DNA of 64,000 nucleotides from Eledone cirrhosa (GCA_964016885.1 OZ024740.1:38192001-38256000); one strand, 5' to 3'; positions 3,001 through 22,400 are shown, counted from the first letter of the stretch. Notes: generated by a model not told the origin, from the sequence alone. Translations and numbers: made by a program.

Positions 3001-6000
3001 GTGTTGAGAAATGAAGTTTCTACATGTTTGAAATGGCCACATGTATCTATAGTTAATGTGTTGAGAAATGAAGTTTCTACATGTTTGAAATGGTCACATG
3101 TATCTATAGTTGATGTCTAAAGAAATTAAGTTTCTACATGTTTGAAATGGTCATATGTATCTGTAGTTAATGTGTTGAGAAATGAAGTTTCTACATGTTT
3201 GAAATGGTCACATGTATCTATAGTTGATGTCTAAAGAAATGAAGTTTCTACATGTTTGAAATGGTCACATGTATCTGTAGTTAATGTGTTGAGAAATGAA
3301 GTTTCTACATGTTTGAAATGGTCACATGTATCTTTAGTTAATGTATTGAGAAATGAAGTTTCTACATGTTTGAAATGGTCACATGTATCTATAGTTAATG
3401 TGTTGAGAAATGAAGTTTCTACATGTTTGAAATGGTCACATGTATCTGTAGTTAATGTGTTGAGAAATGAAGTTTCTACATGTTTGAAATGGTCACACGT
3501 ATCTATAGTTGATGTCTAAAGAAATGAAGTTTCTACATGTTTGAAATGGTCACATGTATCTATAGTTAATGTGTTGAGAAATGAAGTTTCTACATGTTTG
3601 AAATGGTCACATGTATCTGTAGTTAATGTGTTGAGATATGAAGTTTCTACATGTTTGAAATGGTCACATGTATCTATAGTTAATGTGTTGAGATATGAAG
3701 TTTCTACATGTTTGAAATGGTCACATGTATCTATAGTTAATGTGTTGAGAAATGAAGTTTCTACATGTTTGAAATGGTCACATGTATCTATAGTTAATGT
3801 GTTGAGAAATGAAGTTTCTACATGTTTGAAATGGTCACATGTATCTATAGTTAATGTGTTGAGAAATGAAGTTTCTACATGTTTGAAATAGTCACATGTA
3901 TCTGTAGTTAATGTGTTGAGAAATGAAGTTTCTACATGTTTGAAATGGTCACATGTATCTATAGTTGATGTCTAAAGAAATGAAGTTTCTACATGTTTGA
4001 AATGGTCACATGTATCTATAGTTAATGTATTGAGAAATGAAGTTTCTACATGTTTGAAATGGTCACATGTATCTATAGTTAATGTGTTGAGAAATGAAGT
4101 TTCTACATGTTTGAAATGGCCACATGTATCTGTAGTTAATGTGTTGAGAAATGAAGTTTCTACATGTTTGAAATGGTCACATGTATCTGTAGTTAATGTG
4201 TTGAGAAATGAAGTTTCTACATGTTTGAAATGGTCACATGTATCTGTAGTTAATGTATTGAGAAATGAAGTTTCTACATGTTTGAAATTGTCACATGTAT
4301 CTGTAGTTAATGTGTTGAGAAATGAAGTTTCTACATGTTTGAAATTGTCACATGTATCTATAGTTAATGTGTTGAGAAATGAAGTTTCTACATGTTTGAA
4401 ATGGTCACATGTATCTATAGTTAATGTGTTGAGAAATGAAGTTTCTACATGTTTGAAATGGTCACATGTATCTATAGTTAATGTGTTGAGAAATGAAGTT
4501 TCTACATGTTTGAAATAGTCACATGTATCTGTAGTTAATGTGTTGAGAAATGAAGTTTCTACATGTTTGAAATGGTCACATGTATCTATAGTTGATGTCT
4601 AAAGAAATGAAGTTTCTACATGTTTGAAATGGTCACATGTATCTATAGTTAATGTATTGAGAAATGAAGTTTCTACATGTTTGAAATGGTCACATGTATC
4701 TATAGTTAATGTGTTGAGAAATGAAGTTTCTACATGTTTGAAATGGTCACATGTATCTGTAGTTAATGTGTTGAGAAATGAAGTTTCTACATGTTTGAAA
4801 TGGTCACATGTATCTGTAGTTAATGTGTTGAGAAATGAAGTTTCTACATGTTTGAAATGGTCACATGTATCTGTAGTTAATGTATTGAGAAATGAAGTTT
4901 CTACATGTTTGAAATTGTCACATGTATCTGTAGTTAATGTGTTGAGAAATGAAGTTTCTACATGTTTGAAATTGTCACATGTATCTATAGTTAATGTGTT
5001 GAGAAATGAAGTTTCTACATGTTTGAAATAGTCACATGTATCTATAGTTAATGTGTTGAGAAATGAAGTTTCTACATGTTTGAAATGGTCACATGTATCT
5101 ATAGTTAATGTGTTGAGAAATGAAGTTTCTACATGTTTGAAATAGTCACATGTATCTATAGTTAATGTGTTGAGAAATGAAGTTTCTACATGTTTGAAAT
5201 GGTCACATGTATCTATAGTTAATGTGTTGAGAAATGAAGTTTCTACATGTTTGAAATGGTCACATGTATCTGTAGTTAATGTGTTGAGAAATGAAGTTTC
5301 TACATGTTTGAAATTGTCACATGTATCTATAGTTAATGTGTTGAGAAATGAAGTTTCTACATGTTTGAAATGGCCACATGTATCTATAGTTAATGTGTTG
5401 AGAAATGAAGTTTCTACATGTTTGAAATGGTCACATGTATCTATAGTTGATGTCTAAAGAAATTAAGTTTCTACATGTTTGAAATGGTCATATGTATCTG
5501 TAGTTAATGTGTTGAGAAATGAAGTTTCTACATGTTTGAAATGGTCACATGTATCTATAGTTGATGTCTAAAGAAATGAAGTTTCTACATGTTTGAAATG
5601 GTCACATGTATCTGTAGTTAATGTGTTGAGAAATGAAGTTTCTACATGTTTGAAATGGTCACATGTATCTTTAGTTAATGTATTGAGAAATGAAGTTTCT
5701 ACATGTTTGAAATGGTCACATGTATCTATAGTTAATGTGTTGAGAAATGAAGTTTCTACATGTTTGAAATGGTCACATGTATCTGTAGTTAATGTGTTGA
5801 GAAATGAAGTTTCTACATGTTTGAAATGGTCACACGTATCTATAGTTGATGTCTAAAGAAATGAAGTTTCTACATGTTTGAAATGGTCACATGTATCTAT
5901 AGTTAATGTGTTGAGAAATGAAGTTTCTACATGTTTGAAATGGTCACATGTATCTGTAGTTAATGTGTTGAGATATGAAGTTTCTACATGTTTGAAATGG

Positions 6001-9000
6001 TCACATGTATCTATAGTTAATGTGTTGAGATATGAAGTTTCTACATGTTTGAAATGGTCACATGTATCTATAGTTAATGTGTTGAGAAATGAAGTTTCTA
6101 CATGTTTGAAATGGTCACATGTATCTATAGTTAATGTGTTGAGAAATGAAGTTTCTACATGTTTGAAATGGTCACATGTATCTATAGTTAATGTGTTGAG
6201 AAATGAAGTTTCTACATGTTTGAAATAGTCACATGTATCTGTAGTTAATGTGTTGAGAAATGAAGTTTCTACATGTTTGAAATGGTCACATGTATCTATA
6301 GTTGATGTCTAAAGAAATGAAGTTTCTACATGTTTGAAATGGTCACATGTATCTATAGTTAATGTATTGAGAAATGAAGTTTCTACATGTTTGAAATGGT
6401 CACATGTATCTATAGTTAATGTGTTGAGAAATGAAGTTTCTACATGTTTGAAATGGTCACATGTATCTGTAGTTAATGTGTTGAGAAATGAAGTTTCTAC
6501 ATGTTTGAAATGGTCACATGTATCTGTAGTTAATGTGTTGAGAAATGAAGTTTCTACATGTTTGAAATGGTCACATGTATCTGTAGTTAATGTATTGAGA
6601 AATGAAGTTTCTACATGTTTGAAATTGTCACATGTATCTGTAGTTAATGTGTTGAGAAATGAAGTTTCTACATGTTTGAAATTGTCACATGTATCTATAG
6701 TTAATGTGTTGAGAAATGAAGTTTCTACATGTTTGAAATGGTCACATGTATCTATAGTTAATGTGTTGAGAAATGAAGTTTCTACATGTTTGAAATGGTC
6801 ACATGTATCTATAGTTAATGTGTTGAGAAATGAAGTTTCTACATGTTTGAAATGGTCACATGTATCTATAGTTAATGTGTTGAGAAATGAAGTTTCTACA
6901 TGTTTGAAATGGTCACATGTATCTATAGTTAATGTGTTGAGAAATGAAGTTTCTACATGTTTGAAATGGTCACATGTATCTGTAGTTAATGTGTTGAGAA
7001 ATGAAGTTTCTACATGTTTGAAATTGTCACATGTATCTATAGTTAATGTGTTGAGAAATGAAGTTTCTACATGTTTGAAATGGCCACATGTATCTATAGT
7101 TAATGTGTTGAGAAATGAAGTTTCTACATGTTTGAAATGGTCACATGTATCTGTAGTTAATGTGTTGAGAAATGAAGTTTCTACATGTTTGAAATGGTCA
7201 CATGTATCTATAGTTAATGTATTGAGAAATGAAGTTTCTACATGTTTGAAATGGTCACATGTATCTATAGTTAATGTGTTGAGAAATGAAGTTTCTACAT
7301 GTTTGAAATGGTCACATGTATCTATAGTTAATGTGTTGAGAAATGAAGTTTCTACATGTTTGAAATGGTCACATGTATCTATAGTTAATGTGTTGAGAAA
7401 TGAAGTTTCTACATGTTTGAAATGGTCACATGTATCTATAGTTAATGTGTTGAGAAATGAAGTTTCTACATGTTTGAAATGGCCACATGTATCTATAGTT
7501 AATGTGTTGAGAAATGAAGTTTCTACATGTTTGAAATGGCCACATGTATCTGTAGTTAATGTGTTGAGAAATGAAGTTTCTACATGTTTGAAATGGTCAC
7601 ATGTATCTATAGTTGATGTCTAAAGAAATGAAGTTTCTACATGTTTGAAATGGTCACATGTATCTATAGTTAATGTATTGAGAAATGAAGTTTCTACATG
7701 TTTGAAATGGTCACATGTATCTGTAGTTAATGTATTGAGAAATGAAGTTTCTACATGTTTGAAATGGTCACATGTATCTATAGTTAATGTGTTGAGAAAT
7801 GAAGTTTCTACATGTTTGAAATGGTCACATGTATCTATAGTTAATGTGTTGAGAAATGAAGTTTCTACATGTTTGAAATGGTCACATGTATCTGTAGTTA
7901 ATGTGTTGAGAAATGAAGTTTCTACATGTTTGAAATGGTCACATGTATCTATAGTTAATGTGTTGAGAAATGAAGTTTCTACATGTTTGAAATGGTCACA
8001 TGTATCTATAGTTAATGTGTTGAGAAATGAAGTTTCTACATGTTTGAAATGGTCACATGTATCTATAGTTAATGTGTTGAGAAATGAAGTTTCTACATGT
8101 TTGAAATGGTCACATGTATCTATAGTTGATGTCTAAAGAAATGAAGTTTCTACATGTTTGAAATGGTCACATGTATCTATAGTTAATGTATTGAGAAATG
8201 AAGTTTCTACATGTTTGAAATGGCCACATGTATCTATAGTTAATGTGTTGAGAAATGAAGTTTCTACATGTTTGAAATGGCCACATGTATCTGTAGTTAA
8301 TGTGTTGAGAAATGAAGTTTCTACATGTTTGAAATGGTCACATGTATCTATAGTTGATGTCTAAAGAAATGAAGTTTCTACATGTTTGAAATGGTCACAT
8401 GTATCTATAGTTAATGTATTGAGAAATGAAGTTTCTACATGTTTGAAATGGTCACATGTATCTGTAGTTAATGTATTGAGAAATGAAGTTTCTACATGTT
8501 TGAAATGGTCACATGTATCTATAGTTAATGTGTTGAGAAATGAAGTTTCTACATGTTTGAAATGGTCACATGTATCTATAATTAATGTGTTGAGAAATGA
8601 AGTTTCTACATGTTTGAAATGGTCACATGTATCTGTAGTTAATGTGTTGAGATATGAAGTTTCTACATGTTTGAAATGGTCACATGTATCTATAGTTAAT
8701 GTGTTGAGATATGAAGTTTCTACATGTTTGAAATGGTCACATGTATCTATAGTTAATGTGTTGAGAAATGAAGTTTCTACATGTTTGAAATGGTCACATG
8801 TATCTATAGTTAATGTGTTGAGAAATGAAGTTTCTACATGTTTGAAATGGTCACATGTATCTATAGTTAATGTGTTGAGAAATGAAGTTTCTACATGTTT
8901 GAAATAGTCACATGTATCTGTAGTTAATATGTTGAGAAATGAAGTTTCTACATGTTTGAAATGGTCACATGTATCTATAGTTGATGTCTAAAGAAATGAA

Positions 9001-10845
9001 GTTTCTACATGTTTGAAATGGTCACATGTATCTATAGTTAATGTATTGAGAAATGAAGTTTCTACATGTTTGAAATGGTCACATGTATCTATAGTTAATG
9101 TGTTGAGAAATGAAGTTTCTACATGTTTGAAATGGTCACATGTATCTGTAGTTAATGTGTTGAGAAATGAAGTTTCTACATGTTTGAAATGGTCACATGT
9201 ATCTGTAGTTAATGTGTTGAGAAATGAAGTTTCTACATGTTTGAAATGGTCACATGTATCTGTAGTTAATGTATTGAAAAATGAAGTTTCTACATGTTTG
9301 AAATTGTCACATGTATCTGTAGTTAATGTGTTGAGAAATGAAGTTTCTACATGTTTGAAATTGTCACATGTATCTATAGTTAATGTGTTGAGAAATGAAG
9401 TTTCTACATGTTTGAAATGGTCACATGTATCTATAGTTAATGTGTTGAGAAATGAAGTTTCTACATGTTTGAAATGGTCACATGTATCTATAGTTAATGT
9501 GTTGAGAAATGAAGTTTCTACATGTTTGAAATGGTCACATGTATCTATAGTTAATGTGTTGAGAAATGAAGTTTCTACATGTTTGAAATGGTCACATGTA
9601 TCTATAGTTAATGTGTTGAGAAATGAAGTTTCTACATGTTTGAAATGGTCACATGTATCTATAGTTAATGTGTTGAGAAATGAAGTTTCTACATGTTTGA
9701 AATGGTCACATGTATCTGTAGTTAATGTGTTGAGAAATGAAGTTTCTACATGTTTGAAATGGTCACATGTATCTGTAGTTAATGTGTTGAGAAATGAAGT
9801 TTCTACATGTTTGAAATGGTCACATGTATCTGTAGTTAATGTATTGAAAAATGAAGTTTCTACATGTTTGAAATTGTCACATGTATCTGTAGTTAATGTG
9901 TTGAGAAATGAAGTTTCTACATGTTTGAAATTGTCACATGTATCTATAGTTAATGTGTTGAGAAATGAAGTTTCTACATGTTTGAAATGGTCACATGTAT
10001 CTATAGTTAATGTGTTGAGAAATGAAGTTTCTACATGTTTGAAATGGTCACATGTATCTATAGTTAATGTGTTGAGAAATGAAGTTTCTACATGTTTGAA
10101 ATGGTCACATGTATCTATAGTTAATGTGTTGAGAAATGAAGTTTCTACATGTTTGAAATGGTCACATGTATCTATAGTTAATGTGTTGAGAAATGAAGTT
10201 TCTACATGTTTGAAATGGTCACATGTATCTGTAGTTAATGTGTTGAGAAATGAAGTTTCTACATGTTTGAAATTGTCACATGTATCTATAGTTAATGTGT
10301 TGAGAAATGAAGTTTCTACATGTTTGAAATGGCCACATGTATCTATAGTTAATGTGTTGAGAAATGAAGTTTCTACATGTTTGAAATGGTCACATGTATC
10401 TATAGTTGATGTCTAAAGAAATGAAGTTTCTACATGTTTGAAATGGTCACATGTATCTGTAGTTAATGTGTTGAGAAATGAAGTTTCTACATGTTTGAAA
10501 TGGTCACATGTATCTATAGTTGATGTCTAAAGAAATGAAGTTTCTACATGTTTGAAATGGTCACATGTATCTGTAGTTAATGTGTTGAGAAATGAAGTTT
10601 CTACATGTTTGAAATGGTCACATGTATCTTTAGTTAATGTATTGAGAAATGAAGTTTCTACATGTTTGAAATTGTCACATGTATCTATAGTTAATGTGTT
10701 GAGAAATGAAGTTTCTACATGTTTGAAATGGTCACATGTATCTGTAGTTAATGTGTTGAGAAATGAAGTTTCTACATGTTTGAAATAAGTAAATATATCT
10801 GTAGTTAATGTGTAGAGAAATAATGTTTCTATATGTTTCAAATGG
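1..10845. repeat. 57-bp satellite array (~190 monomers, truncated by the left edge); consensus ACATGTTTGAAATGGTCACATGTATCT(A/G)TAGTTAATGTGTTGAGAAATGAAGTTTCT
   Basis: Head-to-tail 57-bp period read directly. The + strand repeat ORFs stay in one frame from 178 to 10788, so there is no net indel. The final monomer (~10785-10845) is degenerate. Confidence 0.98.
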
Positions 10846-10924
10846 TTGGTTGTTAGCTGATCTACTGCACTACTAACAGTTCTGAGTTAGACATATGTCG
10901 GAAGGATATGGACAGACGATTTGC

Positions 10925-10986
10925 CTAACCCATGCTAGAATGGAAAAGAGATGTTAAATGAGGATAATGATGATGATGGTGATGGT
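10925..10986 (+). mobile_element. Isolated 3' tail fragment of an RTE-type LINE or RTE-tailed SINE
   Basis: CTAACCCATGCTAGAATGGAAAAGAGATGTTAAATG followed by a (GAT)n-like run. Closely resembles the 3' end of the LINE at ~12294-12340. Confidence 0.65.
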
Positions 10987-11094
10987 GGACAAGTAATAAC
11001 TATATTGTTATAGTTTCCAGTTCTGTTTATATGTATGATAAATAGTCAGAAGAGCTTCACTTCTTCGTGCTATTTTTACAATCATTATACGGAT

Positions 11095-11270
11095 TGGCAG
11101 TATCGGTAGAGGGTCGGACGCCATGCTTTCCAGCATAGAGTTACGGCCCTTGCCATTCTGAGTTCAAATCCCTCCGAGGTTAACTTTGCCTTTCATCCTT
11201 ACGGGGTCGATAAAATAAAGTACCAGTAATACACTGGGTAATTGCTGGCCTTGTGCCAAAAGTAGAAACA
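11095..11270 (+). mobile_element. tRNA-derived SINE (called family A here), with probable 11-bp target-site duplication
   Basis: A-box-like TGGCAGTATCGGT at the start and B-box GAGTTCAAATCC at 11160. Body CTTTGCCTTTCATCCTTACGGGGTCGATAAAATAAAGTACCAG. Three homologous copies lie on the minus strand at 15267-15940. Flanked by ATTATACGGAT (11084-11094) and ATTATATGGAT (11271-11281). Confidence 0.8.
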
Positions 11271-11282
11271 ATTATATGGATA

Positions 11283-11636
11283 CCGCTTGGCTGAATGGTT
11301 AAAAAGGTTACTTCACACAGTCATTAGGACCCAGGTTCAATCCCACTATGTGGCCTCGAGAGTAAGTATTATTTACCATAGCCTTGAGTTACCTGAGCCT
11401 TGTGAGTGAAACTGGGTAGACAGAAACTGTTTGTAAGGCTGCCAGATTGACTGTATCTGTAATTTAAAGGCCAGCTTTTCAAATATTTTGTCATGCTGAA
11501 TCATCATGAAAATTACGTTAAGGGGGTATGTGTCTGTGGAATGCTCAGCCACTTGCATGTTCATTTCTCAAGCAGGGTGTGTTGTGGTTTGAACACTTGT
11601 CATCAGAAATGATGGCAGTCCAACAACCACAACAAT
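11283..11636 (+). mobile_element. tRNA-derived SINE (family B) with CAA-rich tail
   Basis: A-box TGGCTGAATGG (11288-11298) and B-box GGTTCAATCCC (11334-11344). Body GCCTTGTGAGTG...GGTAGACAGAAACTG; ends in CAACAACCACAACAA. The family resemblance is from memory and the boundaries are approximate. Confidence 0.65.
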
Positions 11637-11782
11637 CAAATATTTTGTACCCTTTTATTAGGCTCAATATAAGTCCTACTTAATTCTCTTTTATCATGTA
11701 TTTTAGTCAGTGGATGAAATATTAAAAAATATATATAATATATAGTATATAGTCTATAGTAAATGATGTTTAACTATATAAT

Positions 11783-12340
11783 GATGGAAGTTATGGAGTA
11801 GGTAGAGCCAGAAAAACCTGGGACGATCTGATAAATTCCGACCTTACACACTTACACCTCTCTAAGACAATGTCACTGGACCGAGATCTTTGGCACCACG
11901 CAGTAATACAGAAGACCCGCCTTGCCTATGTACAAAGTGAAATCTACAGTCAGTAGGCCCCTCTTAACCAAATATACACCCCAATCCACTACCCCCACAC
12001 GATCCTCCCACTTCCACCAACACCACCCTCTCTCTGTAAAGTTGATACCACAACATCCAGTCTAAATAAATTAGAAAATGAGATCGAGATCGTGTAGGTG
12101 TCACGACAAAAAAACACACAGTCCACGCTGTAATGTGGCCGTATAGGTAACACGGTAAAAAGTTTCCAGTCCACACTGTAAATGTGGTTGGTGTTAGGAA
12201 GGGCATCCAGCCGTAGAAAACCTGCCCGATAGTCCTATATGAGCGAGACACAGTCACCCGACCAACCTTGCCTCAAATTGGGACAACTCCCGTCTAACCC
12301 ATGCTAGTGTGGAAGATAGACGTTAAACGATGATGATGAT
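11783..12340 (+). mobile_element. 5'-truncated RTE-clade non-LTR retrotransposon (ORF C-terminus, 3' UTR and (GAT)n tail)
   Basis: 11783-11956 translates without interruption as DGSYGVGRARKTWDDLINSDLTHLHLSKTMSLDRDLWHHAVIQKTRLAYVQSEIYSQ*, matching the GRPxKTW...DRxxW C-terminal motif of RTE-clade ORFs. The UTR contains GGTTGGTGTTAGGAAGGGCATCCAGCCGTAGAAA and ends CTAACCCATGCTAGTGTGGAAGATAGACGTTAAACGATGATGATGAT. Confidence 0.8.
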
Positions 12341-12418
12341 GTATATAGTAAATAAGCAGATAGTAAATATGTATATAGTAAATAAGTAGATAGTAAATAT
12401 GTATATAGTAAATAAGCA
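12341..12418. repeat. 30-bp minisatellite, ~2.6 copies (GTATATAGTAAATAAG(C/T)AGATAGTAAATAT)
   Basis: Direct tandem copies at 12341, 12371 and 12401, immediately after the LINE tail. Confidence 0.9.
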
Positions 12419-12541
12419 TTTTAATTCTTTCACAATTCGTAAATTTCACTTCCTGACCTGTTTTATACAATTTAATAAGAAAGAGTTAGTTTTTAGCCCT
12501 GAGTCAATCTGATTCTAACCATGATCATCTGATCTTTTTGG

Positions 12542-12840
12542 GGGATCTAAACCTACATTATCTAATGTGTCTTTTACTTTTAAAGATATATAATACTGCA
12601 TTATCTAATGTATCCTTTACTTTTAATGGTATCTAGGACTATATTATCTAATGTATCCTTTACTTTTAATGGTATCTAGGACTATATTATCTAATGTATC
12701 CTTTACTTTTAATGGTATCTAGGGCTATATTATCTAATGTATCCTTTACTTTTAATGGTATCTAGGACTATATTATCTAATGTGTACTTTACTTTTAATG
12801 GTATCTAGGACTATATTATCTGTGTCCTTTACTTTTTAAG
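12542..12840. repeat. 43-bp minisatellite, ~7 copies (GGTATCTAGGACTATATTATCTAATGTATCCTTTACTTTTAAT)
   Basis: Near-identical copies start at 12628, 12671, 12714, 12757 and 12800. Two diverged copies lie to their left. Confidence 0.92.
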
Positions 12841-13029
12841 ATGTTATCATGTGATTTGAAAGAAATCTGACTTCTATTTTTAACAGAATGAGCAATCCTG
12901 TCAAGTTTCTTTCAAGAACTTGAAATTAAAGATTGATTTAAACAAGATAGAAACTGAACTGTAAGACGATGAAGATGTTAGTGTAAAGTATCAGGTTTGT
13001 GTCTTGTCCCTGAGGTACTTCAATTGTAC

Positions 13030-13132
13030 AGGTAACTGAAGTGTTTTTCTCAAGAACATATTGCACTGCCCAGTCCAATATTAGAACCCATAACCTTATG
13101 ATTGTGAGTCGAACACCCTAACCACTAGGCTT
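13030..13132 (-). mobile_element. Degraded tRNA-derived SINE head (family C)
   Basis: Reverse complement reads GCCTAGTGGTTAGGGTGTTCGACTCACAATC...TGTTCTTGAGAAAAACACTTCA, homologous to the head of the element at 14891-15176. Confidence 0.65.
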
Positions 13133-13327
13133 CATCTGATCATAACTGAAAACAATAAGGTTCAATCAAACCCAAATTGCTTGAGCCATTAGGAAATCAA
13201 TAATTCAGGAAATGATGCCTACATAATTGATGATCTATTTGATTGATTGATTGTAATTCAAGATTAATTATTCATTCATTAAAACTCAACAAAAAATAAA
13301 AATAACAAATTCAACTAGATTGCTAAC

Positions 13328-13583
13328 CTCCACCATTCCTGTGTACCAAATAAGGAAATCTCCATATATTTCCAAGACCAATCACATAGCCTAGACATGA
13401 GAGCATAAAATCTAGTCTTCGATTCCAGTAACCCCTCAGCTTGTTTTCTTCTGCTGTCATAGACTCATTGGTACTCTCATTGCTGGTGATGGAAATAGCA
13501 TCTGCTAAGTAACTACCCCCTGACTGTGTTGCTCCGCCAATGGTAACAGTAGGGGATACTCCAGCTTGTACATCACTCTGGTC
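13328..13583 (-). CDS. Coding exon of an SLC6 / NSS sodium- and chloride-dependent transporter (N-terminal tail, TM1, start of EL1); amino-acid-transporter type (glycine/GABA/proline-like) rather than monoamine type
   Basis: On the minus strand a pyrimidine-rich acceptor ATTTCTTTATTTCTAATTTCTAG precedes 256 nt open in frame: [85 protein letters not shown](G). The donor is GAG|GTTAGC. The R-x-x-W...DF.LS..GY..GLGN.WRFPY...NGGG signature is diagnostic of SLC6, and a phase-1 intron within NGGG is a common SLC6 intron position. Confidence 0.95.
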
Positions 13584-13612
13584 CTAGAAATTAGAAATAA
13601 AGAAATCTGTTA

Positions 13613-13647
13613 TTAGTATGGAAAATAGATGTTAAACGATGATTATT
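13613..13647 (+). mobile_element. Short RTE-type 3' tail fragment
   Basis: TTAGTATGGAAAATAGATGTTAAACGATGATT resembles the LINE terminus at ~12304-12340. Confidence 0.55.
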
Positions 13648-13726
13648 AGGCATACACAGGAGAGTAGAAAGGTTAGAGAGAAAGGAAAGAACAAGAAATG
13701 TAAGACAGTGATGACTAAAACAGTAG

Positions 13727-13774
13727 AATCATCATCATTAAACATTGACTTTCCTTGCTAACATGGGTAGAATG
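13727..13774 (-). mobile_element. Short RTE-type 3' tail fragment, inverted
   Basis: Reverse complement reads CATTCTACCCATGTTAGCAAGGAAAGTCAATGTTTAATGATGATGATT. Confidence 0.55.
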
Positions 13775-13885
13775 ATGAATGAAATACATTATAGTGCTTA
13801 GTTTTATCTTTCTTCCTTCAGAGGTCAATCTAGGATATTGGGATCAACTATACCACATAAATATTGGTCTTGTCTCCAAATAAGA

Positions 13886-13977
13886 CAGTTACAGTTAGAT
13901 GAAGTAATAAGGTTATCAGTCTAATAATACAGTATGGCAGTTACAATTAAATGAAGAGATAAAATTATCAATCTAAT
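13886..13977. repeat. Diverged two-copy direct repeat (~40-bp unit, 52-bp spacing)
   Basis: CAGTTACAGTTAGATGAAGTAATAAGGTTATCAGTCTAAT at 13886 versus CAGTTACAATTAAATGAAGAGATAAAATTATCAATCTAAT at 13938. Confidence 0.7.
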
Positions 13978-14890
13978 CTTAAACTGTCTACATCAACATG
14001 TGCACACAGATAACATAAAGTAGGTGACACAATAGAATCACAACTAAACCCCCATTACATAAACATATCTACATACTTCATCAATCAATATACAACTCCT
14101 CCAAATATCAACTTATGCTCAACACATTTAAGCACATAACAAATATTTGTGAATTTCCTTGGATTCCTTATTTAGCATCAATGAACAAAGCAAAACCACT
14201 TTAAAAAATGCCAAAGGGATAAGTTCCACTAGGAAACCAGAGTTTAACGACCCAACAATTAACCACATGTATAAAATGGAGAGAAGATGGGCTCCACCAG
14301 GTTTAAAATGTCCTAAAAATGCCATATGACAATGGGGTGCCCTATAATTCACTCAGGGGTTACAGGATTGTACATATATATATAGTATAAAATAAGGAAG
14401 ATATTTCCTTCAAAAGAAAATTCCCTGCCTCTTAAATTTTTCACAACCATTGATATACAGTCAAGCTGTGTCTTTTTATATATCTTCTCTTGTACTTTAA
14501 GGGATTATACTTCTCTAAAGGTTTAACTCTATTCAATTTTATTTCTTCTCTTCTTACTCATTCCTTCATTTCCAGATTTCACTCCTTCAACAACGCCCTC
14601 CATATCCATTTATAACACTAAACTTCATCTCATCCATTTAAAATAAATAAGCCTAGAATATTCTCTAATATAAATACAGGTACTACTCTTTGTACTAAAA
14701 TATCAAAATATCAAATTCATAAGTTTGTTAGTTAACTTTGACAATATTAAACATATCTGTAGATATATATGTAGATAGTTATAATGAGTTTCATAATTAT
14801 ATTATTACAGTTAATTCCTAAATATTTCAAGTATTTATCTGTAACAATGCCTGTATTACCTGTCGGGGCTATTTTCAAGTTTTTTCTATA

Positions 14891-15176
14891 GAGTCTAAAG
14901 TTTGTCTCAAGCCTGGAAGCTCATCAGGCCAGTACTTATCCTAGTTTCCATGAAGTTAAGCAACTGAGAGTACAAGATACCCTCTGGACAGGATGCCAGC
15001 CCATCACAGGGTTAAACCCCCAACTATTACTGGTTCTCTTTTTCAGCTGAATATACTGGAGCAATGTGAAATGAAGTGTTTTGCTCAAGAACACAATACA
15101 TGACCCAGTCCAGGAATCGAACCTATAACATAATGTTTATAAGTCCAACACCCTTACCACTAAGCCATGCACCTTC
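14891..15176 (-). mobile_element. Apparently full-length tRNA-derived SINE (family C) flanked by a 33-bp direct repeat
   Basis: Reverse complement shows A-box TGGCTTAGTGGTAAG, B-box GGTTCGATTCC, and a central CCCTGTGATGGGCTGGCATCCTGTCCAG motif resembling the V-SINE conserved domain. Flanking direct repeats at 14858-14890 and 15177-15209 are 30/33 identical. Confidence 0.8.
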
Positions 15177-15266
15177 ACCTGTCTGGACTATTTTCAAGTT
15201 TTGTCTATAACCATTTGTGCAACTTATTTTGTACATAGCTTTAAACATCTTATATTTTCAATTGTA

Positions 15267-15472
15267 AATAATGATTTCTAATTTAGAAACAAGCCCAATA
15301 AGTTGAGGGGAGAAGAAAGTCGATTTTATCAACCTAATATATGACAGGTACTTTATTTAATCAACCTCATAAGATTGAAAGGCAAAGTTGACTTTGGCAT
15401 GATTTAAATTCAGAATGTAAAGAGCTAGAACTAAGTGCTGCAAAACAATTAGTCCAACGCTCTACCAATTAC
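15267..15472 (-). mobile_element. SINE family A copy 1 of a tandem triplet (most diverged)
   Basis: GAAAGGCAAAGTTGACTTTGGCATGATTTAAATTCAGAAT is the reverse complement of the family A core. Confidence 0.75.
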
Positions 15473-15482
15473 TGTTTTCAAC

Positions 15483-15705
15483 TAATAATTGTTTCTAATT
15501 TTGGCACAAGGCCAGCAATTTGATGGGAAGGGAAAAGTCAATTAAATCAACCCCAGTGCATTGCTGATACTTTATTTTATCAACCCCATAAGGAAGAAAG
15601 GCAAAGCTAACCTCAGTAGGATTTGAACTCAGAATGTAAAGGGTGTACTATATGTCATAAAGCATGTTGTCCAATGCGCTACCAATACTGCAAATCCATC
15701 ACCAT
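15483..15705 (-). mobile_element. SINE family A copy 2 of the tandem triplet
   Basis: 15552-15635 is the reverse complement of 11155-11238 with 10 mismatches in 84 nt (hand count). B-box complement GGATTTGAACTC at 15619. Confidence 0.8.
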
Positions 15706-15712
15706 TTTTCAA

Positions 15713-15940
15713 CTAATAATGATGGTTTTTGATTTAGGCACAAAGTCAACAATTTTGGGAGAGGGGAATGTTGATTAACTCAACCCCGGTGCATTGCTGG
15801 TACTTTATTTCATCAACCCTGTAAGGATGAAAGGCAAAGCTAACCTTGGCAGGATTTGAACTCAGAATATAAAGGGCCATAACTATATGCTGCAAAGTAT
15901 GTTGTCTGACACTCAACTGACACTGTTAACCCACTGCCCT
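15713..15940 (-). mobile_element. SINE family A copy 3 of the tandem triplet
   Basis: AAGGATGAAAGGCAAAGCTAACCTTGGCAGGATTTGAACTCAGAAT. The 5' head ends near CCACTGCC at ~15938. Confidence 0.8.
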
Positions 15941-16444
15941 AATAATAATAAATTTGATCTCTTTTGATACTGAAATGAAGCAAGACTGCATTACATCAGC
16001 CACATTACTGATATTACATCTCAATTATATTTAAGAATGTGTACTGCTAATCCAGTCCTGACACATAAGCTTCTTACCTAATTTGTACCTTTAATTTATT
16101 CTTAACAATACTAATTTAAGTCTATACATCAGATTAGACAATACTGCTCTAAGGGGAAATACTTAATCAGTGAAAGATGTATGTTTGTGGAATCTCACAT
16201 TGCAATTGTGTATGATTTATTTAAAAGAAATAGACAATTTGAAAATTTATTTTTTAAACAATCTTTTTCTTTTCAAATACAACAAATTGAGATTATAGCT
16301 GTTTAGAATTTTCTTTATGTGTGCCATTCTAACAGTTTAATTATTATTTAATACTATCTCAGCCAGGTTAGTACTTTCTAAACTGGATTAACACAAAATT
16401 ATAATAATAAACTCACAGAAAATTAACATCTCAAGTGAAGTCAA

Positions 16445-19400
16445 AAACAGATGACTAACTAGGTTGTGTTTACATTAATTCTAGCTCATCTTAAACATTA
16501 CACTACAGATCAGGTACAAACAGTTGACTAACTAGGTTGTGTTTACATTAATTCTAGCTCATCTTAAACATTACACTACAGATCAGGTACAAACAGCTGA
16601 CTAACTAGGTTATTTATACATTAAACCTAGCTCATCTTATACATTACACTACAGATCATGTACAAACAGTTGACTAACTAGGTTGTGTTTACATTAATCC
16701 TAGCTCATCTTATACATTACACTACAGATCAGGTACAAACAGTTGACAAACTAGGTTGTGTTTACGTTAATCCTAGCTCATCTTATACATTACACTACAG
16801 ATCAGGTACAAACAGTTGACTAACTAGGTTGTGTTTACATTAATCCTAGCTCATCTTATACATTACACTACAGATCAGGTACAAACAGCTGACTAACTAG
16901 GTTATTTTTACTTTAATCCTAGCTCATCTTATACATTACACTACAGATCAGGTACAAACAGTTGACTAACTAGGTTGTGTTTACATTAAACCTAGCTCAT
17001 CTTATAAATTACACTACAGATCAGGTACAAACAGTTGACTAACTAGGTTGTGTTTACATTAATCCTAGCTCATATTATAGATTACACTACAGATCAGGTA
17101 CAAACAGCTGACTAACTAGGTTATTTTTACTTTAATCCTAGCTCATCTTATACATTACACTACAGATCGGGTACAAACAGTTGACTAACTAGGTTGTGTT
17201 TACATTAATCCTAGCTCATCTTATACATTACACTACAGATCAGGTACAAACAGCTGACTAACTAGGTTGTGTTTACATTAATCCTAGCTCATCTTATACA
17301 TTACACTACAGATCAGGTACAAACAGTTGACTAACTAGGTTGTGTTTACATTAATCCTAGCTCATCTTATACATTCCACTACAGATCAGGTACAAACAGC
17401 TGACTAACTAGGTTATTTTTACTTTAATCCTAGATCATCTTATACATTACACTACAGATCAGGTACAAACAGCTGACTAACTAGGTTGTTTTTACATTAA
17501 TCCTAGCTCATCTTATATATTACACTACAGATCAGGTACAAACAGCTGACTAACTAGGTTATTTTTACTTTAATCCTAGCTCATCTTATACATTACACTA
17601 CAGATCAGGTACAAACAGCTGACGAACTAGGTTATTTTTACTTTAATCCTAGCTCATCTTATACATTACACTACAGATCAGGTACAAACAGTTGACTAAC
17701 TAGGTTGTGTTTACATTAATCCTAGCTCATCTTATACATTACACAACAGATCAAGTACAAACAGTTGACTAACTAGGTTGTGTTTACATTAACCCTAGCT
17801 CATCTTATACATTACACTACAGATCAGGTACAAACAGCTGACTAACTAGGTTATTTTTACATTAATCTTAGCTCATCTTATACATTACACTACAGATCAG
17901 GTACAAACAGTTGACTAACTAGGTTGTGTTTACATTAATCCTAGCTCATCTTATACATTACACTACAGATCAGGTACAAACAGCTGACTAACTAGGTTAT
18001 TTTTACTTTAATCCTAGCTCATCTTATACATTACACTACAGATCAGGTACAAACAGCTGACTAACTAGGTTGTTTTTACATTAATCCTAGCTCATCTTAT
18101 ACATTACACTACAGATCAGGTACAAACAGTTGACTAACTAGGTTGTGTTTACATTAATCCTAGCTCATCTTATACATTACACTACAGATCAGGTACAAAC
18201 AGCTGACTAACTAGGTTATTTTTACTTTAATCCTAGCTCATCTTATACATTACACTACAGATCAGGTACAAACAGCTGACTAACTAGGTTGTTTTTACAT
18301 TAATCCTAGCTCATCTTATACATTACACTACAGATCAGGTACAAACAGTTGACTAACTAGGTTGTGTTTACATTAATCCTAGCTCATCTTATACATTACA
18401 CTACAGATCAGGTACAAACAGTTGACTAACTAGGTTGTGTTTACATTAACCCTAGCTCATCTTATACATTACACTACAGATCAGGTACAAACAGCTGACT
18501 AACTAGGTTATTTTTACATTAATCCTAGCTCATCTTATACATTACACTACAGATCAGGTACAAACAGTTGACTAACTAGGTTGTGTTTACATTAATCCTA
18601 GCTCATCTTATACATTACACTACAGATCAGGTACAAACAGCTGACTAACTAGGTTATTTTTACTTTAATCCTAGCTCATCTTATACATTACACTACAGAT
18701 CAGGTACAAACAGTTGACTAACTAGGTTGTGTTTATATTAATCCTAGCTCATCTTATAAATTACACTACAGATCAGGTACAAACAGTTGACTAACTAGGT
18801 TGTGTTTACATTAATCCTAGCTCATCTTATACATTACACTACAGATCAGGTACAAACAGCTGACTAACTAGGTTATTTTTACATTAATCCTAGCTCATCT
18901 TATACATTACACTACAGATCAGGTACAAACAGATGACTAACTAGGTTGTGTTTACATTAATCCTAGCTCATCTTATACATTACACTACAGATCGGGTACA
19001 AACAGCTGACTAACTAGGTTATTTTTACATTAATCCTAGCTCATCATATACAATACACTACAGATCAGGTACAAACAGTTGACTAACTAGGTTGTGTTTA
19101 CATTAATCCTAGCTCATCTCATACATTACACTACAGATCAGGTACAAACATCTGACTAACTAGGTTATTTTTACATTAATCCTAGCTCATCTTATACATT
19201 ACACTACAGATCAGGTACAAACAGTTGACTAACTAGGTTGTGGTTACATTAATCCTAGCTTACCTTATACATTACACTACAGATCAGGTACAAACAGCTG
19301 ACTAACTAGGTTGTGTTTACATTAATCCTAGCTCATCTTATACATTACACTACAGATCAGGTACAAACTGCTGACTAACTAGGTTATTTTTACATTAATC

Positions 19401-22400
19401 CTAGCTCATCTTATACATTACACTACAGATCAGGTACAAACAGTTGACTAACTAGGTTGTGTTTACGTTAATCCTAGCTCATCTTATACATTACACTACA
19501 GCTCAGGTACAAACAGCTGACTAACTAGGTTATTTTTACTTTAATCCTAGCTCATCTTATACATTAAAGTACAGATCAGGTACAAACAGCTGACTAACTA
19601 GGTTGTTTTTACATTAATCCTAGCTCATCTTATACATTACACTACAGATCAGGTACAAACAGCTGACTAACTAGGTTATTTTTACTTTAATCCTAGCTCA
19701 TCTTATACATTACACTACAGATCAGGTACAAAAAGCTGACTAACTAAGTTGTGTTTACATTAATCCTAGCTCATCTTATACATTACACTACAGATCAGGT
19801 ACAAACAGCTGACTAACTAGGTTATTTTTACTTTAATCCTAGCTCATCTTATACATTACACTACAGATCGGGTACAAACAGTTGACTAACTAGGTTGTGT
19901 TTACATTAATCCTAGCTCATCTTATACATTACACTACAGATCAGGTACAAACAGTTGACTAACTAGGTTATTTTTACTTTAATCCTAGCTCATCTTATAC
20001 ATTACACTACAGATCAGGTACAAACAGTTGACTAACTAGGTTGTGTTTACATTAATCCTAGCTCATCTTATACATTACACTACAGATCAGGTACAAACAG
20101 CTGACTAACTAGGTTATTTTTACTTTAATCCTAGCTCATCTTATACATTACACTACAGATCAGGTACAAACAGCTGACTAACTATGTTGTTTTTACATTA
20201 ATCCTAGCTCATCTTATATATTACACTACAGATCAGGTACAAACAGCTGACTAACTAGGTTATTTTTACTTTAATCCTAGCTCATCTTATACATTACACT
20301 ACAGATCAGGTACAAACAGCTGACGAACTAGGTTATTTTTACTTTAATCCTAGCTCATCTTATACATTACACTACAGATCAGGTACAAACAGTTGACTAA
20401 CTAGGTTGTGTTTACATTAATCCTAGCTCATCTTATACATTACACAACAGATCAGGTACAAACAGTTGACTAACTAGGTTGTGTTTACATTAACCCTAGC
20501 TCATCTTATACATTACACTACAGATCAGGTACAAACAGCTGACTAACTAGGTTATTTTTACATTAATCTTAGCTCATCTTATACATTACACTACAGATCA
20601 GGTACAAACAGTTGACTAACTAGGTTGTGTTTACATTAATCCTAGCTCATCTTATACATTACACTACAGATCAGGTACAAACAGCTGACTAACTAGGTTA
20701 TTTTTACTTTAATCCTAGCTCATCTTATACATTACACTACAGATCAGGTACAAACAGCTGACTAACTAGGTTGTTTTTACATTAATCCTAGCTCATCTTA
20801 TACATTACACTACAGATCAGGTACAAACAGTTGACTAACTAGGTTGTGTTTACATTAATCCTAGCTCATCTTATACATTACACTACAGATCAGGTACAAA
20901 CAGCTGACTATCTAGGTTATTTTTACTTTAATCCTAGCTCATCTTATACATTACACTACAGATCAGGTACAAACAGCTGACTAACTAGGTTGTTTTTACA
21001 TTAATCCTAGCTCATCTTATACATTACACTACAGATCAGGTACAAACAGTTGACTAACTAGGTTGTGTTTACATTAATCCTAGCTCATCTTATACATTAC
21101 ACTACAGATCAGGTACAAACAGTTGACTAACTAGGTTGTGTTTACATTAATCCTAGCTCATCTTATACATTACACTACAGATCGGGTACAAACAGCTGAC
21201 TAACTAGGTTGTTTTTACATTAATCCTAGCTCATCTTATACATTACACTACAGATCAGGTACAAACAGCTGACTAACTAGGTTGTGTTTACATTAATCCT
21301 AGCTCATCTTATACATTACACTACAGATCAGGTACAAACTGCTGACTAACTAGGTTATTTTTACATTAATCCTAGCTCATCTTATACATTACACTACAGA
21401 TCAGGTACAAACAGTTGACTAACTAGGTTGTGTTTACGTTAATCCTAGCTCATCTTATACATTACACTACAGCTCAGGTACAAACAGCTGACTAACTAGG
21501 TTATTTTTACTTTAATCCTAGCTCATCTTATACATTAAACTACAGATCAGGTACAAACAGCTGACTAACTAGGTTGTTTTTACATTAATCCTAGCTCATC
21601 TTATACATTACACTACAGATCAGGTACAAACAGCTGACTAACTAGGTTATTTTTACTTTAATCCTAGCTCATCTTATACATTACACTACAGATCAGGTAC
21701 AAACAGCTGACTAACTAGGTTGTGTTTACATTAATCCTAGCTCATCTTATACATTACACTACAGATCATGTACAAACAGCTGACTAACTAGGTTGTGTTT
21801 ACATTAATCCTAGCTCATCTTATACATTACACTACAGATCAGGTACAAACAGTTGACTAACTAGGTTGTGTTTACATTAATCCTAGCTCATCTTATACAT
21901 TACACTACAGATCAGGTACAAACAGCTGACTAACTAGGTTATTTTTACTTTAATCCTAGCTCATCTTATACGTTACACTACAGATCAGGTACAAACAGCT
22001 GACTAACTAGGTTGTTTTTACATTAATCCTAGCTCATCTTATAAATTACACTACAGATCAGGTACAAACAGTTGACTAACTAGGTTGTGGTTACATTAAT
22101 CCTAGCTTACCTTATACATTACACTACAGATCAGGTACAAACAGCTGACTAACTAGGTTGTGTTTACATTAATCCTAGCTCATCTTATACATTACACTAC
22201 AGATCAGGTACAAACTGCTGACTAACTAGGTTATTTTTACATTAATCCTAGCTCATCTTATACATTACACTACAGATCAGGTACAAACAGTTGACTAACT
22301 AGGTTATTTTTACGTTAATCCTAGCTCATCTTATACATTACACTACAGCTCAGGTACAAACAGCTGACTAACTAGGTTATTTTTACTTTAATCCTAGCTC

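What the first reader, a model, noticed from the sequence alone, without database searches (positions are those of the whole stretch)
10846..16444. A lone, intact SLC6 transporter exon stranded between two giant satellite arrays: a gene with satellite-filled giant introns
Seen: one clean 256-bp SLC6 exon with canonical AG/GT sites and no stops in a 5.6-kb island. I could not find the next exon (expected to begin G-AFLIPY-like) between 13327 and the 57-bp array. Inference: the downstream intron is >13 kb and contains the >10.8-kb 57-bp array. The exon opens with a splice acceptor and 41 in-frame sense codons before its first Met, so an upstream exon probably exists; if it lies beyond the window, the upstream intron holds >47 kb of 73-bp satellite. 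Pol II would then transcribe hundreds of satellite monomers to make a transporter mRNA. Satellite-filled giant introns are established for Drosophila Y-linked fertility genes (kl-3, kl-5), where they need dedicated RNA-binding proteins. A similar arrangement in an SLC6 gene, with a different satellite per intron, could affect transcription timing or expression.
Basis: partly seen in the sequence, partly recalled or inferred. Interest (0 to 1): 0.75.

Follow-up and report, generated by a model that had tools for sequence, protein, structure and literature searches.

The report
Double SLC6 transporter with satellite introns
The lone exon is exon 14 of an intact octopod transporter gene over 826,000 bases long; a transcript-like contig joins it to both neighbouring exons across repeat-filled introns of 138 and 23 kb, the repeats are likely a trait of this chromosome region, and the predicted protein is a mollusc-wide double transporter whose first half is likely inactive.

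Summary
Confirmed and extended. The 256-bp exon is exon 14 of a 27-exon, 2,014-aa SLC6 gene in an octopod, spanning 826 kb of C1 plus three exons on unplaced C436. A 6,578-nt contig from a public run joins it exactly to exon 13 across 138,150 bp (114-kb 73-bp array) and to exon 15 across 23,441 bp (17.5-kb 57-bp array). Five introns hold five unrelated large arrays; probes for the two window arrays occur nowhere else.

A Y-loop-like programme is not supported. The flanks are as satellite-rich (52%, 94%), the neighbouring DOP1 gene likely holds arrays too, and 4 of 39 genome samples are array. This scan noted such introns in six or more other genes of this genome. The closest analogue is chicken intron 'stuttering'.

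The surprise is the protein: two SLC6 domains in tandem in all 19 mollusc proteins examined, chiton to octopus, also encoded on intron-free contigs. Domain 1 keeps the fold but lacks the TM1 Trp-Arg in 19 of 19. Domain 2 keeps its sites and has a KAAT1-like TM7 Asp. Four literature searches found no description.

The parts
13328..13583 (-). Exon 14 of the tandem SLC6 gene (aa 714-798 of 2,014): interdomain linker plus TM1 of domain 2; phase 0 in, phase 1 out. Genome place C1:38205583-38205328.
   Evidence: joined to exons 13 and 15 in contig 28 of run X4
13584..64000 (-). 3' part of intron 13 (138,150 bp in all; exon 13 lies at C1:38343919-38343734, window equivalent about 151,700-151,900)
16445..64000 (.). 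73-bp tandem array inside intron 13; whole array C1:38208445-38322765, 114,321 bp, 1,565 copies; 2.4-3.3% divergence from consensus in every 10-kb bin
   Evidence: all 922 genome-wide exact matches of a 36-base probe lie in it
1..13327 (-). 5' part of intron 14 (23,441 bp in all; exon 15 begins at C1:38181886, about 10.1 kb before the window)
1..10846 (.). 57-bp tandem array inside intron 14; whole array C1:38185301-38202846, 17,546 bp, 308 copies
   Evidence: all 213 genome-wide exact matches of a 33-base probe lie in it
12553..12836 (.). Small 43-bp tandem array (6.7 copies) in the island
11081..11278 (.). Dispersed repeat in the island (up to 92 hits in the 1.12-Mb region; called SINE-like from recall)
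11782..12354 (.). Dispersed repeat in the island (up to 59 hits)
14898..15180 (.). Dispersed repeat in the island (up to 27 hits)
15267..15952 (.). Dispersed repeats in the island (up to 85 hits)

Best explanation
The exon belongs to one intact, spliced SLC6 gene whose introns hold large unrelated tandem arrays that likely grew in place as a trait of this repeat-rich region, and the gene is predicted to encode a mollusc-wide two-domain protein in which a likely inactive first transporter domain is fused to a likely working amino-acid transporter. Shown: exon order, GT-AG sites, the open frame, the two joins around exon 14, array sizes, and single-locus probes for the two window arrays. Inferred for the DNA: short intronic pieces were amplified locally by slippage or unequal exchange and kept even by homogenisation; some small arrays nearby derive from dispersed repeats. 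They are tolerated because the monomers carry no strong splice acceptor on the transcribed strand. Pol II would read through them and the exons would be joined by ordinary exon definition. Inferred for the protein: an ancient duplication or fusion of two SLC6 genes with the same intron positions, fixed before chitons and other molluscs split. Domain 2 would co-transport Na+ with a small neutral amino acid (Gly/Pro type), with weak Cl- dependence or K+ acceptance from its TM7 Asp. Domain 1 would act as a built-in, non-transporting partner (folding, trafficking or regulation). The tail would anchor the protein through a TQT motif and a terminal PDZ-type motif.
For: Gene: 26 exons fitted with GT-AG sites give one open frame; exon 27 completes 2,014 aa; 1,763 of 1,995 residues are identical to the O. 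sinensis orthologue. Splicing: X4 contig 28 fits window 13327-13584 only, with 0 mismatches, and its loose ends equal the end of exon 13 and the start of exon 15; DNA runs X1-X3 cover 12900-14300 in one piece. Regional trait: introns on C1 are 53% satellite (438,370 of 822,156 bp), flanks 52% of 263 kb and 94% of 34 kb, against a mean of 13% in 39 fixed-position samples, 4 of them at least 80%. DOP1 exons at C1:38121135 and 38000865 bracket arrays of 3.5, 25, 3.2 and 15 kb. No run of 8 pyrimidines plus AG lies in any of the 5 large arrays. Tandem protein: two domains in 19 mollusc proteins; each domain forms its own group with SH-aLRT 100; 8 of 15 listed members of one cluster are 2,029-aa proteins on contigs of 6,400-7,752 nt, too short to hold introns; 8 of the 10 introns in domain 2 fall at the same column and phase in domain 1. 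Domain 1: TM1 Trp and Arg absent in 19 of 19, TM1 Asn kept in 5, TM6 Gln in 4, TM7 Ser in 1; domain 2 keeps all of these in 19 of 19; fold kept, TM-score 0.80-0.87 to solved SLC6 chains.
Against: Only the two joins around exon 14 are transcript-checked in this species; the other 24 are predicted. Run X4's kind is not on record (RNA is inferred from the skipped introns), and all four runs come from one study. Array lengths rest on the assembly alone, without long reads. C436 is placed in the gap at C1:38154236 by inference. Domain 1 is not decaying freely: it is 91% identical to O. sinensis and 67% to a 2,029-aa record that clusters with a cuttlefish protein, and it has Lys at the TM1 Arg position in 10 of 19, so a changed transport activity is not excluded. 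Domain 1 and 2 as sister groups has only 83% support in FastTree and is unresolved in IQ-TREE. This locus is about four times richer in satellite than the genome mean, which a neutral model must still explain. No function was tested.
Confidence: 0.75

Rival explanations
1. The arrays are a selected, gene-specific device as proposed for Drosophila kl-3 and kl-5: they delay or gate expression of this transporter and recruit dedicated RNA-binding proteins.
For: The gene is at least 826 kb; five introns are 83-96% satellite, about four times the genome mean. Transcription would take several hours at recalled Pol II rates of 1-3 kb per minute.
Against: Flanks outside the gene are equally rich; DOP1 next door likely has array-filled introns; the five monomers are unrelated, so one binding protein could hardly serve them; earlier notes of this scan list the same build in SRA1, LHPP, APLF, REXO5-like, unc79 and SPAG17 (unchecked).
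Confidence: 0.1
2. Domain 1 is a working transporter with altered substrate or ion coupling, so the protein is a true two-pore or relay transporter.
For: Domain 1 keeps the full SLC6 fold, is conserved among octopods (91%), and has Lys at the TM1 Arg position in 10 of 19. The annelid Owenia record P0053 has a domain 1 with intact motifs.
Against: The ion-site residues differ between mollusc classes rather than being replaced by one new conserved set; domain 1 is less conserved than domain 2 in all 8 species compared.
Confidence: 0.2
3. The main product is a domain-2-only transporter from an internal start near exon 13, and the tandem form is a minor isoform.
For: Domain-2-only records exist: P0163 (1,319 aa on a 4,470-nt contig, starting at the Met at the exon 13/14 join), P0067 and P0191 (987 aa), and the O. 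vulgaris model P0168. Exon 13 ends in Met codons in this genome.
Against: These records may be fragments; full tandem proteins sit on intron-free contigs (P0043 cluster, P0196, P0003); no separate domain-1 protein was found among 7,997 scored candidates of 361-1,152 aa. A start in exon 13 would still cross both arrays.
Confidence: 0.2
4. The arrays are inflated or mis-joined by the assembler, so the giant introns are not real.
For: No read spanning an array was seen here; the gene has two assembly gaps elsewhere.
Against: Introns 13 and 14 contain no gap; 24 exons are collinear across the arrays; the 73-bp array has 218 distinct monomers among 1,368; the probes match at one locus only.
Confidence: 0.06

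Closest known systems
Intron 'sequence stuttering' of chicken dot-chromosome genes (Hron et al. 2026, PMC12954441; abstract, part 1 of 2 of section 7 and passages read)
   Same: Each intron holds its own locally expanded motif of tens of bases; blocks stay inside introns; coding exons intact; a property of a chromosome region.
   Different: Arrays here are regular (92-96% TRF matches for four of five) and 17-114 kb, against 1.6-2.9 kb for the chicken example intron; no exon-derived monomer among the five large arrays; length variation between individuals not tested.
Intron gigantism of Drosophila Y-linked kl-3 and kl-5 (PMC6508621, PMC11207136; abstracts and section lists read)
   Same: Conserved coding exons separated by satellite-filled introns that must be transcribed and spliced.
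   Different: There the introns are megabases of simple repeats, over 99% of the locus, with dedicated RNA-binding proteins. Here the gene is under 1 Mb, 53% satellite, with five unrelated 22-73-bp units, and neighbours are built alike.
SLC6 amino-acid transporters GlyT2 (SLC6A5), PROT (SLC6A7), GlyT1 (SLC6A9)
   Same: Best solved-structure matches of the tandem protein P0043 are GlyT2, PROT and GlyT1 (E 1e-177 to 1e-158). Domain 2 is 46% identical to lungfish GlyT2 and has Gly at the TM1 substrate position, as they do.
   Different: They have one domain. Domain 2 does not group with them in the trees, has Asp for the TM7 Asn, and carries a degenerate extra domain in front and a 650-aa tail.
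Lepidopteran KAAT1 / CAATCH1 (review PMC8310414; passages read)
   Same: Asp at the TM7 position equal to LeuT N286 (KAAT1 D338), linked there to K+ acceptance and weak chloride dependence; domain 2 has Asp in 19 of 19 molluscs.
   Different: Domain 2 does not group with the insect nutrient-transporter rows; KAAT1's own TM1 changes were not compared; KAAT1 itself was not in the alignment.
Two-domain SLC6 database records in vertebrates and insects (e.g. P0070, P0103)
   Same: Two SNF domains in one predicted protein.
   Different: Those have two intact domains, occur in scattered single species and are likely merged models of neighbouring genes (inference). The mollusc form has one origin per domain, a consistently degenerate first domain and intron-free contigs.

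Membership tests
SLC6 / SNF (PF00209), domain 2 | Full-length match to the family profile | tested here: met
   P0001 aa 112-671 covers profile 1-523 of 524, E 3.4e-181; own model aa 742-1353, 760 bits on a local profile
SLC6 / SNF (PF00209), domain 2 | TM1 Asn and Arg, TM6 Gln and Ser/Thr, TM7 Ser (site names recalled, except LeuT N286 from PMC8310414) | tested here: met
   19 of 19 mollusc domains 2; TM7 Asn replaced by Asp in 19 of 19
SLC6 / SNF (PF00209), domain 2 | Na+-coupled substrate transport | not testable with these tools
   needs oocyte or cell uptake
SLC6 / SNF, domain 1 as a working transporter | SLC6 (LeuT) fold | tested here: met
   AlphaFold model of O. bimaculoides P0171: pLDDT mostly 70-95 over aa 101-660 apart from loops; TM-score 0.80-0.87 by target in the 50 rows listed
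SLC6 / SNF, domain 1 as a working transporter | TM1 G-N-x-W-R-F-P motif and TM6/TM7 ion-site residues | tested here: not met
   Trp and Arg absent in 19 of 19 (Lys in 10, His in 3); Asn in 5, TM6 Gln in 4, TM7 Ser in 1 of 19
Monoamine transporters (some RefSeq/GenBank records of the orthologue are named dopamine transporter-like) | Asp at the TM1 substrate position (recalled: SERT D98) | tested here: not met
   Gly in domain 2, Asn in octopod domain 1; best solved matches are glycine and proline transporters
Drosophila-type Y-loop intron gigantism | Megabase introns of simple satellite, over 99% of the locus | tested here: not met
   largest intron 272 kb (contains a gap), largest array 114 kb, 53% satellite
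Drosophila-type Y-loop intron gigantism | Satellite introns transcribed and spliced out | tested here: inconclusive
   a spliced contig across both introns implies read-through; nascent RNA over the arrays was not seen
Drosophila-type Y-loop intron gigantism | Dedicated RNA-binding proteins and stage-specific programme | not testable with these tools
   no data
Avian-type intron stuttering | Locally expanded, intron-confined motifs, different per intron, exons intact | tested here: met
   single-locus probes for 2 of the 5 large arrays
Avian-type intron stuttering | Some expansions start from exon ends | tested here: not met
   the five large monomers hit non-array DNA, exons included, with at most 14-18 nt at E 0.1-0.4
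Avian-type intron stuttering | Intron length polymorphic between individuals | not testable with these tools
   needs long reads from several animals

The most novel reading that the evidence does not exclude
Molluscs, and perhaps other spiralians, carry an undescribed covalent SLC6 pseudo-dimer more than 500 million years old: a non-transporting SLC6 domain fused in front of a K+-accepting or weakly chloride-dependent amino-acid transporter, acting as its built-in regulator or sensor. In this octopod the gene has swollen to about 850 kb by intron-private satellite growth, making it a test case both for SLC6 oligomer function and for intron stuttering outside birds.
Probability: 0.45. Interest if true: 0.75.

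Novelty: new variant of a known kind. Interest (0 to 1): 0.58.

Why it matters
Whether and why SLC6 transporters work as oligomers is an open question (recalled). A natural fusion of a degenerate and an intact domain, kept across all mollusc classes sampled, lets one test each half separately and together. Databases call the protein uncharacterised, split it, or name it dopamine transporter-like, which can mislead cephalopod neurobiology. The introns give a transcript-checked case of single-locus satellite growth inside a gene of an invertebrate; because this seems common in this genome, it matters as genome biology rather than as a device of this gene.

Tried and rejected
No RNA holder was listed for the stretch; X4 is treated as RNA only because its contig skips both introns. 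Laying X4 on exon 13 gave cover only in the bin holding the exon's last ~45 bases and none over the rest; a hole in filtered contigs proves nothing, so the join to domain 1 is untested in this species. Orphan duplicated exon: rejected (one 100% locus; all other exons found). Further exons inside the island: none. SLC6-family habit of satellite introns: rejected, three paralogue stretches had 2%, 11% and 2% (exon pairing taken; the C8 stretch covers 50 of about 53 kb). A higher-order repeat in the window arrays: lag identities are flat or fall smoothly. Scarcity of poly(A) signals in the arrays (0-8 AATAAA each) had no control and is not used. The careful IQ-TREE search did not finish, so the quick tree is used; two partial rows (P0010, P0199) were left out of both trees. 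Stand-alone domain-1 relatives: only generic SLC6 at 27-31%; the representatives search added no domain-1-like rows outside molluscs among the 60 further top hits considered for the tree. Only 45 of 215 long frames in the downstream flank were scanned with Pfam. One of 40 baseline samples did not exist. The tandem core exceeds the folding limits, so domain packing was not modelled. Literature: searches (tandem SLC6; cephalopod satellite introns) found no description; the library holds open-access text only. Passages of 10.1101/301192, PMC9815951 and PMC9476566 did not mention this gene; their supplements were not seen and the SLC6 tree tables of 10.1101/301192 may include its pieces.
Full report
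Observation. The window is a 5.6-kb island between a 57-bp array (1-10846) and a 73-bp array (16445-64000). On the minus strand, 13583-13328 is a 256-bp exon with AG and GT ends, an open frame with 41 codons before the first Met and a Pfam SNF hit. The window is G000:C1:38192001-38256000 in a 3.0-Gb genome; the exon matches only itself at 100%, the best of 23 other matches being 56%. The closest protein is an Argonauta record at 93% over the whole exon, so the animal is an octopod.

The gene. With octopus orthologues as guides, exons were found from an ATG at C1:38981503 down to C1:38155210, in order and on one strand. The rest lies on unplaced contig C436; an assembly gap follows exon 24 at C1:38154236, so C436 likely belongs there. 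Fitting splice sites gave 26 exons, all GT-AG, in one open frame, 1,763 of 1,995 residues identical to O. sinensis P0041. A last exon completes 27 exons and 2,014 aa. The window exon is exon 14. Intron 13 is 138,150 bp and intron 14 is 23,441 bp; neither has a gap.

Splicing. Four public runs hold the stretch, all from one study, none on record as RNA. X1-X3 cover window 12900-14300 in one piece. In X4 a 6,578-nt contig fits only 13327-13584, with no mismatch. Its loose ends are the last bases of exon 13 and the first of exon 15. So a spliced molecule crosses both arrays, which implies that both are transcribed.

The arrays. Five introns are 83-96% satellite: intron 3 (99 kb, 61-bp unit), 8 (66 kb, 41 bp), 9 (94 kb, 44 bp built of 22), 13 (114 kb, 73 bp) and 14 (17.5 kb, 57 bp); the units are unrelated. 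All 922 and all 213 genome-wide exact matches of probes for the two window arrays lie inside them. Divergence from consensus is even along each (2.4-3.3% and 1.8-2.4%), and none of the five arrays holds a pyrimidine run plus AG. The large monomers have no source in the surrounding non-array DNA, but several small arrays nearby match dispersed repeats with 79-133 hits, which shows how such arrays can start.

Is it special to this gene? Introns on C1 are 53% satellite, but so is the flank: 52% of 263 kb downstream and 94% of 34 kb upstream. Dopey_N and DOP1_C frames 120 kb apart bracket four arrays in the downstream flank, so DOP1 is likely built the same way. Thirty-nine fixed-position 10-kb samples average 13% satellite and 4 are at least 80%; three long introns of other SLC6 paralogues have 2-11%. 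Earlier notes of this scan describe the same build in at least six other genes of this genome (unchecked AI notes). They pointed to chicken intron stuttering, which I read: intron-confined, locally expanded motifs with intact exons. It fits better than the Drosophila Y-loop genes, whose abstracts describe megabases of simple repeat and dedicated RNA-binding proteins.

The protein. The orthologues are 1,385-2,131 aa and have two SNF domains. The window exon encodes the linker and TM1 of the second. Nineteen mollusc proteins (three cephalopod, five gastropod, ten bivalve, one chiton; two are unnamed records placed by the tree) share the build. Each domain forms one group with support 100 in both trees, so the tandem predates the split of chitons from other molluscs. 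It is not a gene-model merger: 8 of 15 listed members of one cluster are 2,029-aa proteins on contigs of 6,400-7,752 nt, and P0196 (2,061 aa) and P0003 (1,555 aa) sit on contigs of 6,416 and 6,099 nt. Eight of ten domain-2 introns have a domain-1 intron at the same column and phase; since SLC6 genes often share intron sites (recalled), this fits duplication or fusion alike. Sisterhood of the two domains is weak (83). The annelid records Owenia P0053 and Dimorphilus P0099 are also tandem, with the TM7 Asp in domain 2 and a TQT motif in the tail, so the fusion may be older; these are unverified gene models.

Function, inferred. Domain 2 keeps the TM1 Asn and Arg, TM6 Gln and Ser/Thr and TM7 Ser in 19 of 19, and has Gly at the TM1 substrate position; the best solved matches are GlyT2, PROT and GlyT1. 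Its TM7 Asn is Asp in 19 of 19; a review links this Asp in KAAT1 to K+ use and weak chloride dependence (PMC8310414, passages). Domain 1 lacks the TM1 Trp and Arg in 19 of 19 and keeps TM1 Asn in 5, TM6 Gln in 4 and TM7 Ser in 1; the listing of PMC2792339 says GAT-1 mutants of the conserved Gln291 cannot transport (abstract start only; equivalence to this TM6 Gln is recalled). Yet domain 1 keeps the fold and is conserved, though less than domain 2 in all 8 comparisons. Against inactivity, Lys stands at the Arg position in 10 of 19. The tail has a TQT or IQT motif in 22 of 27 proteins scanned and ends in a T-x-L/F-type motif in most mollusc records; reading these as dynein-light-chain and PDZ ligands is recalled. 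I therefore favour a pseudo-transporter fused to a working amino-acid transporter.

Novelty and verdict. Satellite-filled introns are known in kind and common in this genome; this case adds a transcript check of both joins. The tandem SLC6 was not found in searches, nor in this scan's notes; the library is open-access only. New variant of a known kind; interest 0.58.

Noticed in passing
G000:C1:38121135-38000536 (L028:8770-9135 and L071:8536-8865, minus strand): Exons of DOP1/Dopey (Pfam Dopey_N and DOP1_C) 120 kb apart, with four tandem arrays between them: a neighbouring gene likely built the same way.
   Followed up: partly
G000:C1:38113772-38117230, 38174071-38174489; C436:135521-138168: Small arrays (48-bp, 48-bp, 61-bp units) whose monomers match dispersed repeats of the region with 79-133 hits: arrays likely born from mobile-element pieces.
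   Followed up: partly
G000:C436, near 164,640-164,450, minus strand: An extra exon matching O. sinensis aa about 1380-1441, absent from the Argonauta and O. bimaculoides records: likely a cassette exon between exons 24 and 25.
   Followed up: no
G000:C1:38709136-38981398 (intron 1): The longest intron (272 kb, one gap) is only 8% satellite but 23% long AT-type microsatellite runs of 1-6 kb.
   Followed up: no
G000:C1:38983415-39016000: A 22-bp array starts 1.9 kb upstream of the ATG exon and switches orientation at 38994345.
   Followed up: no
proteins P0053 (Owenia), P0099 (Dimorphilus), P0106 (Macrostomum), P0100 (Lingula): Non-mollusc records near the mollusc group in the trees: three are tandem with TM7 Asp in domain 2; Lingula has one domain and the same kind of tail motif.
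   Followed up: partly
proteins P0074, P0079, P0088 (pulmonate snails): Domain 2 is itself on a long branch and has lost the TM8 Gly-Leu-Ser pattern, so both domains may be drifting in pulmonates.
   Followed up: no
L069, L070, L076, L077, L078, L028 (C1:37.97-38.12 Mb): Several LINE-like frames with reverse transcriptase, four of them with a PHD finger just downstream.
   Followed up: no
window 13030, 14000, 14055: Two substitutions and a 16-base insertion in contigs of X1 and X3 but not X2: likely the second allele.
   Followed up: no
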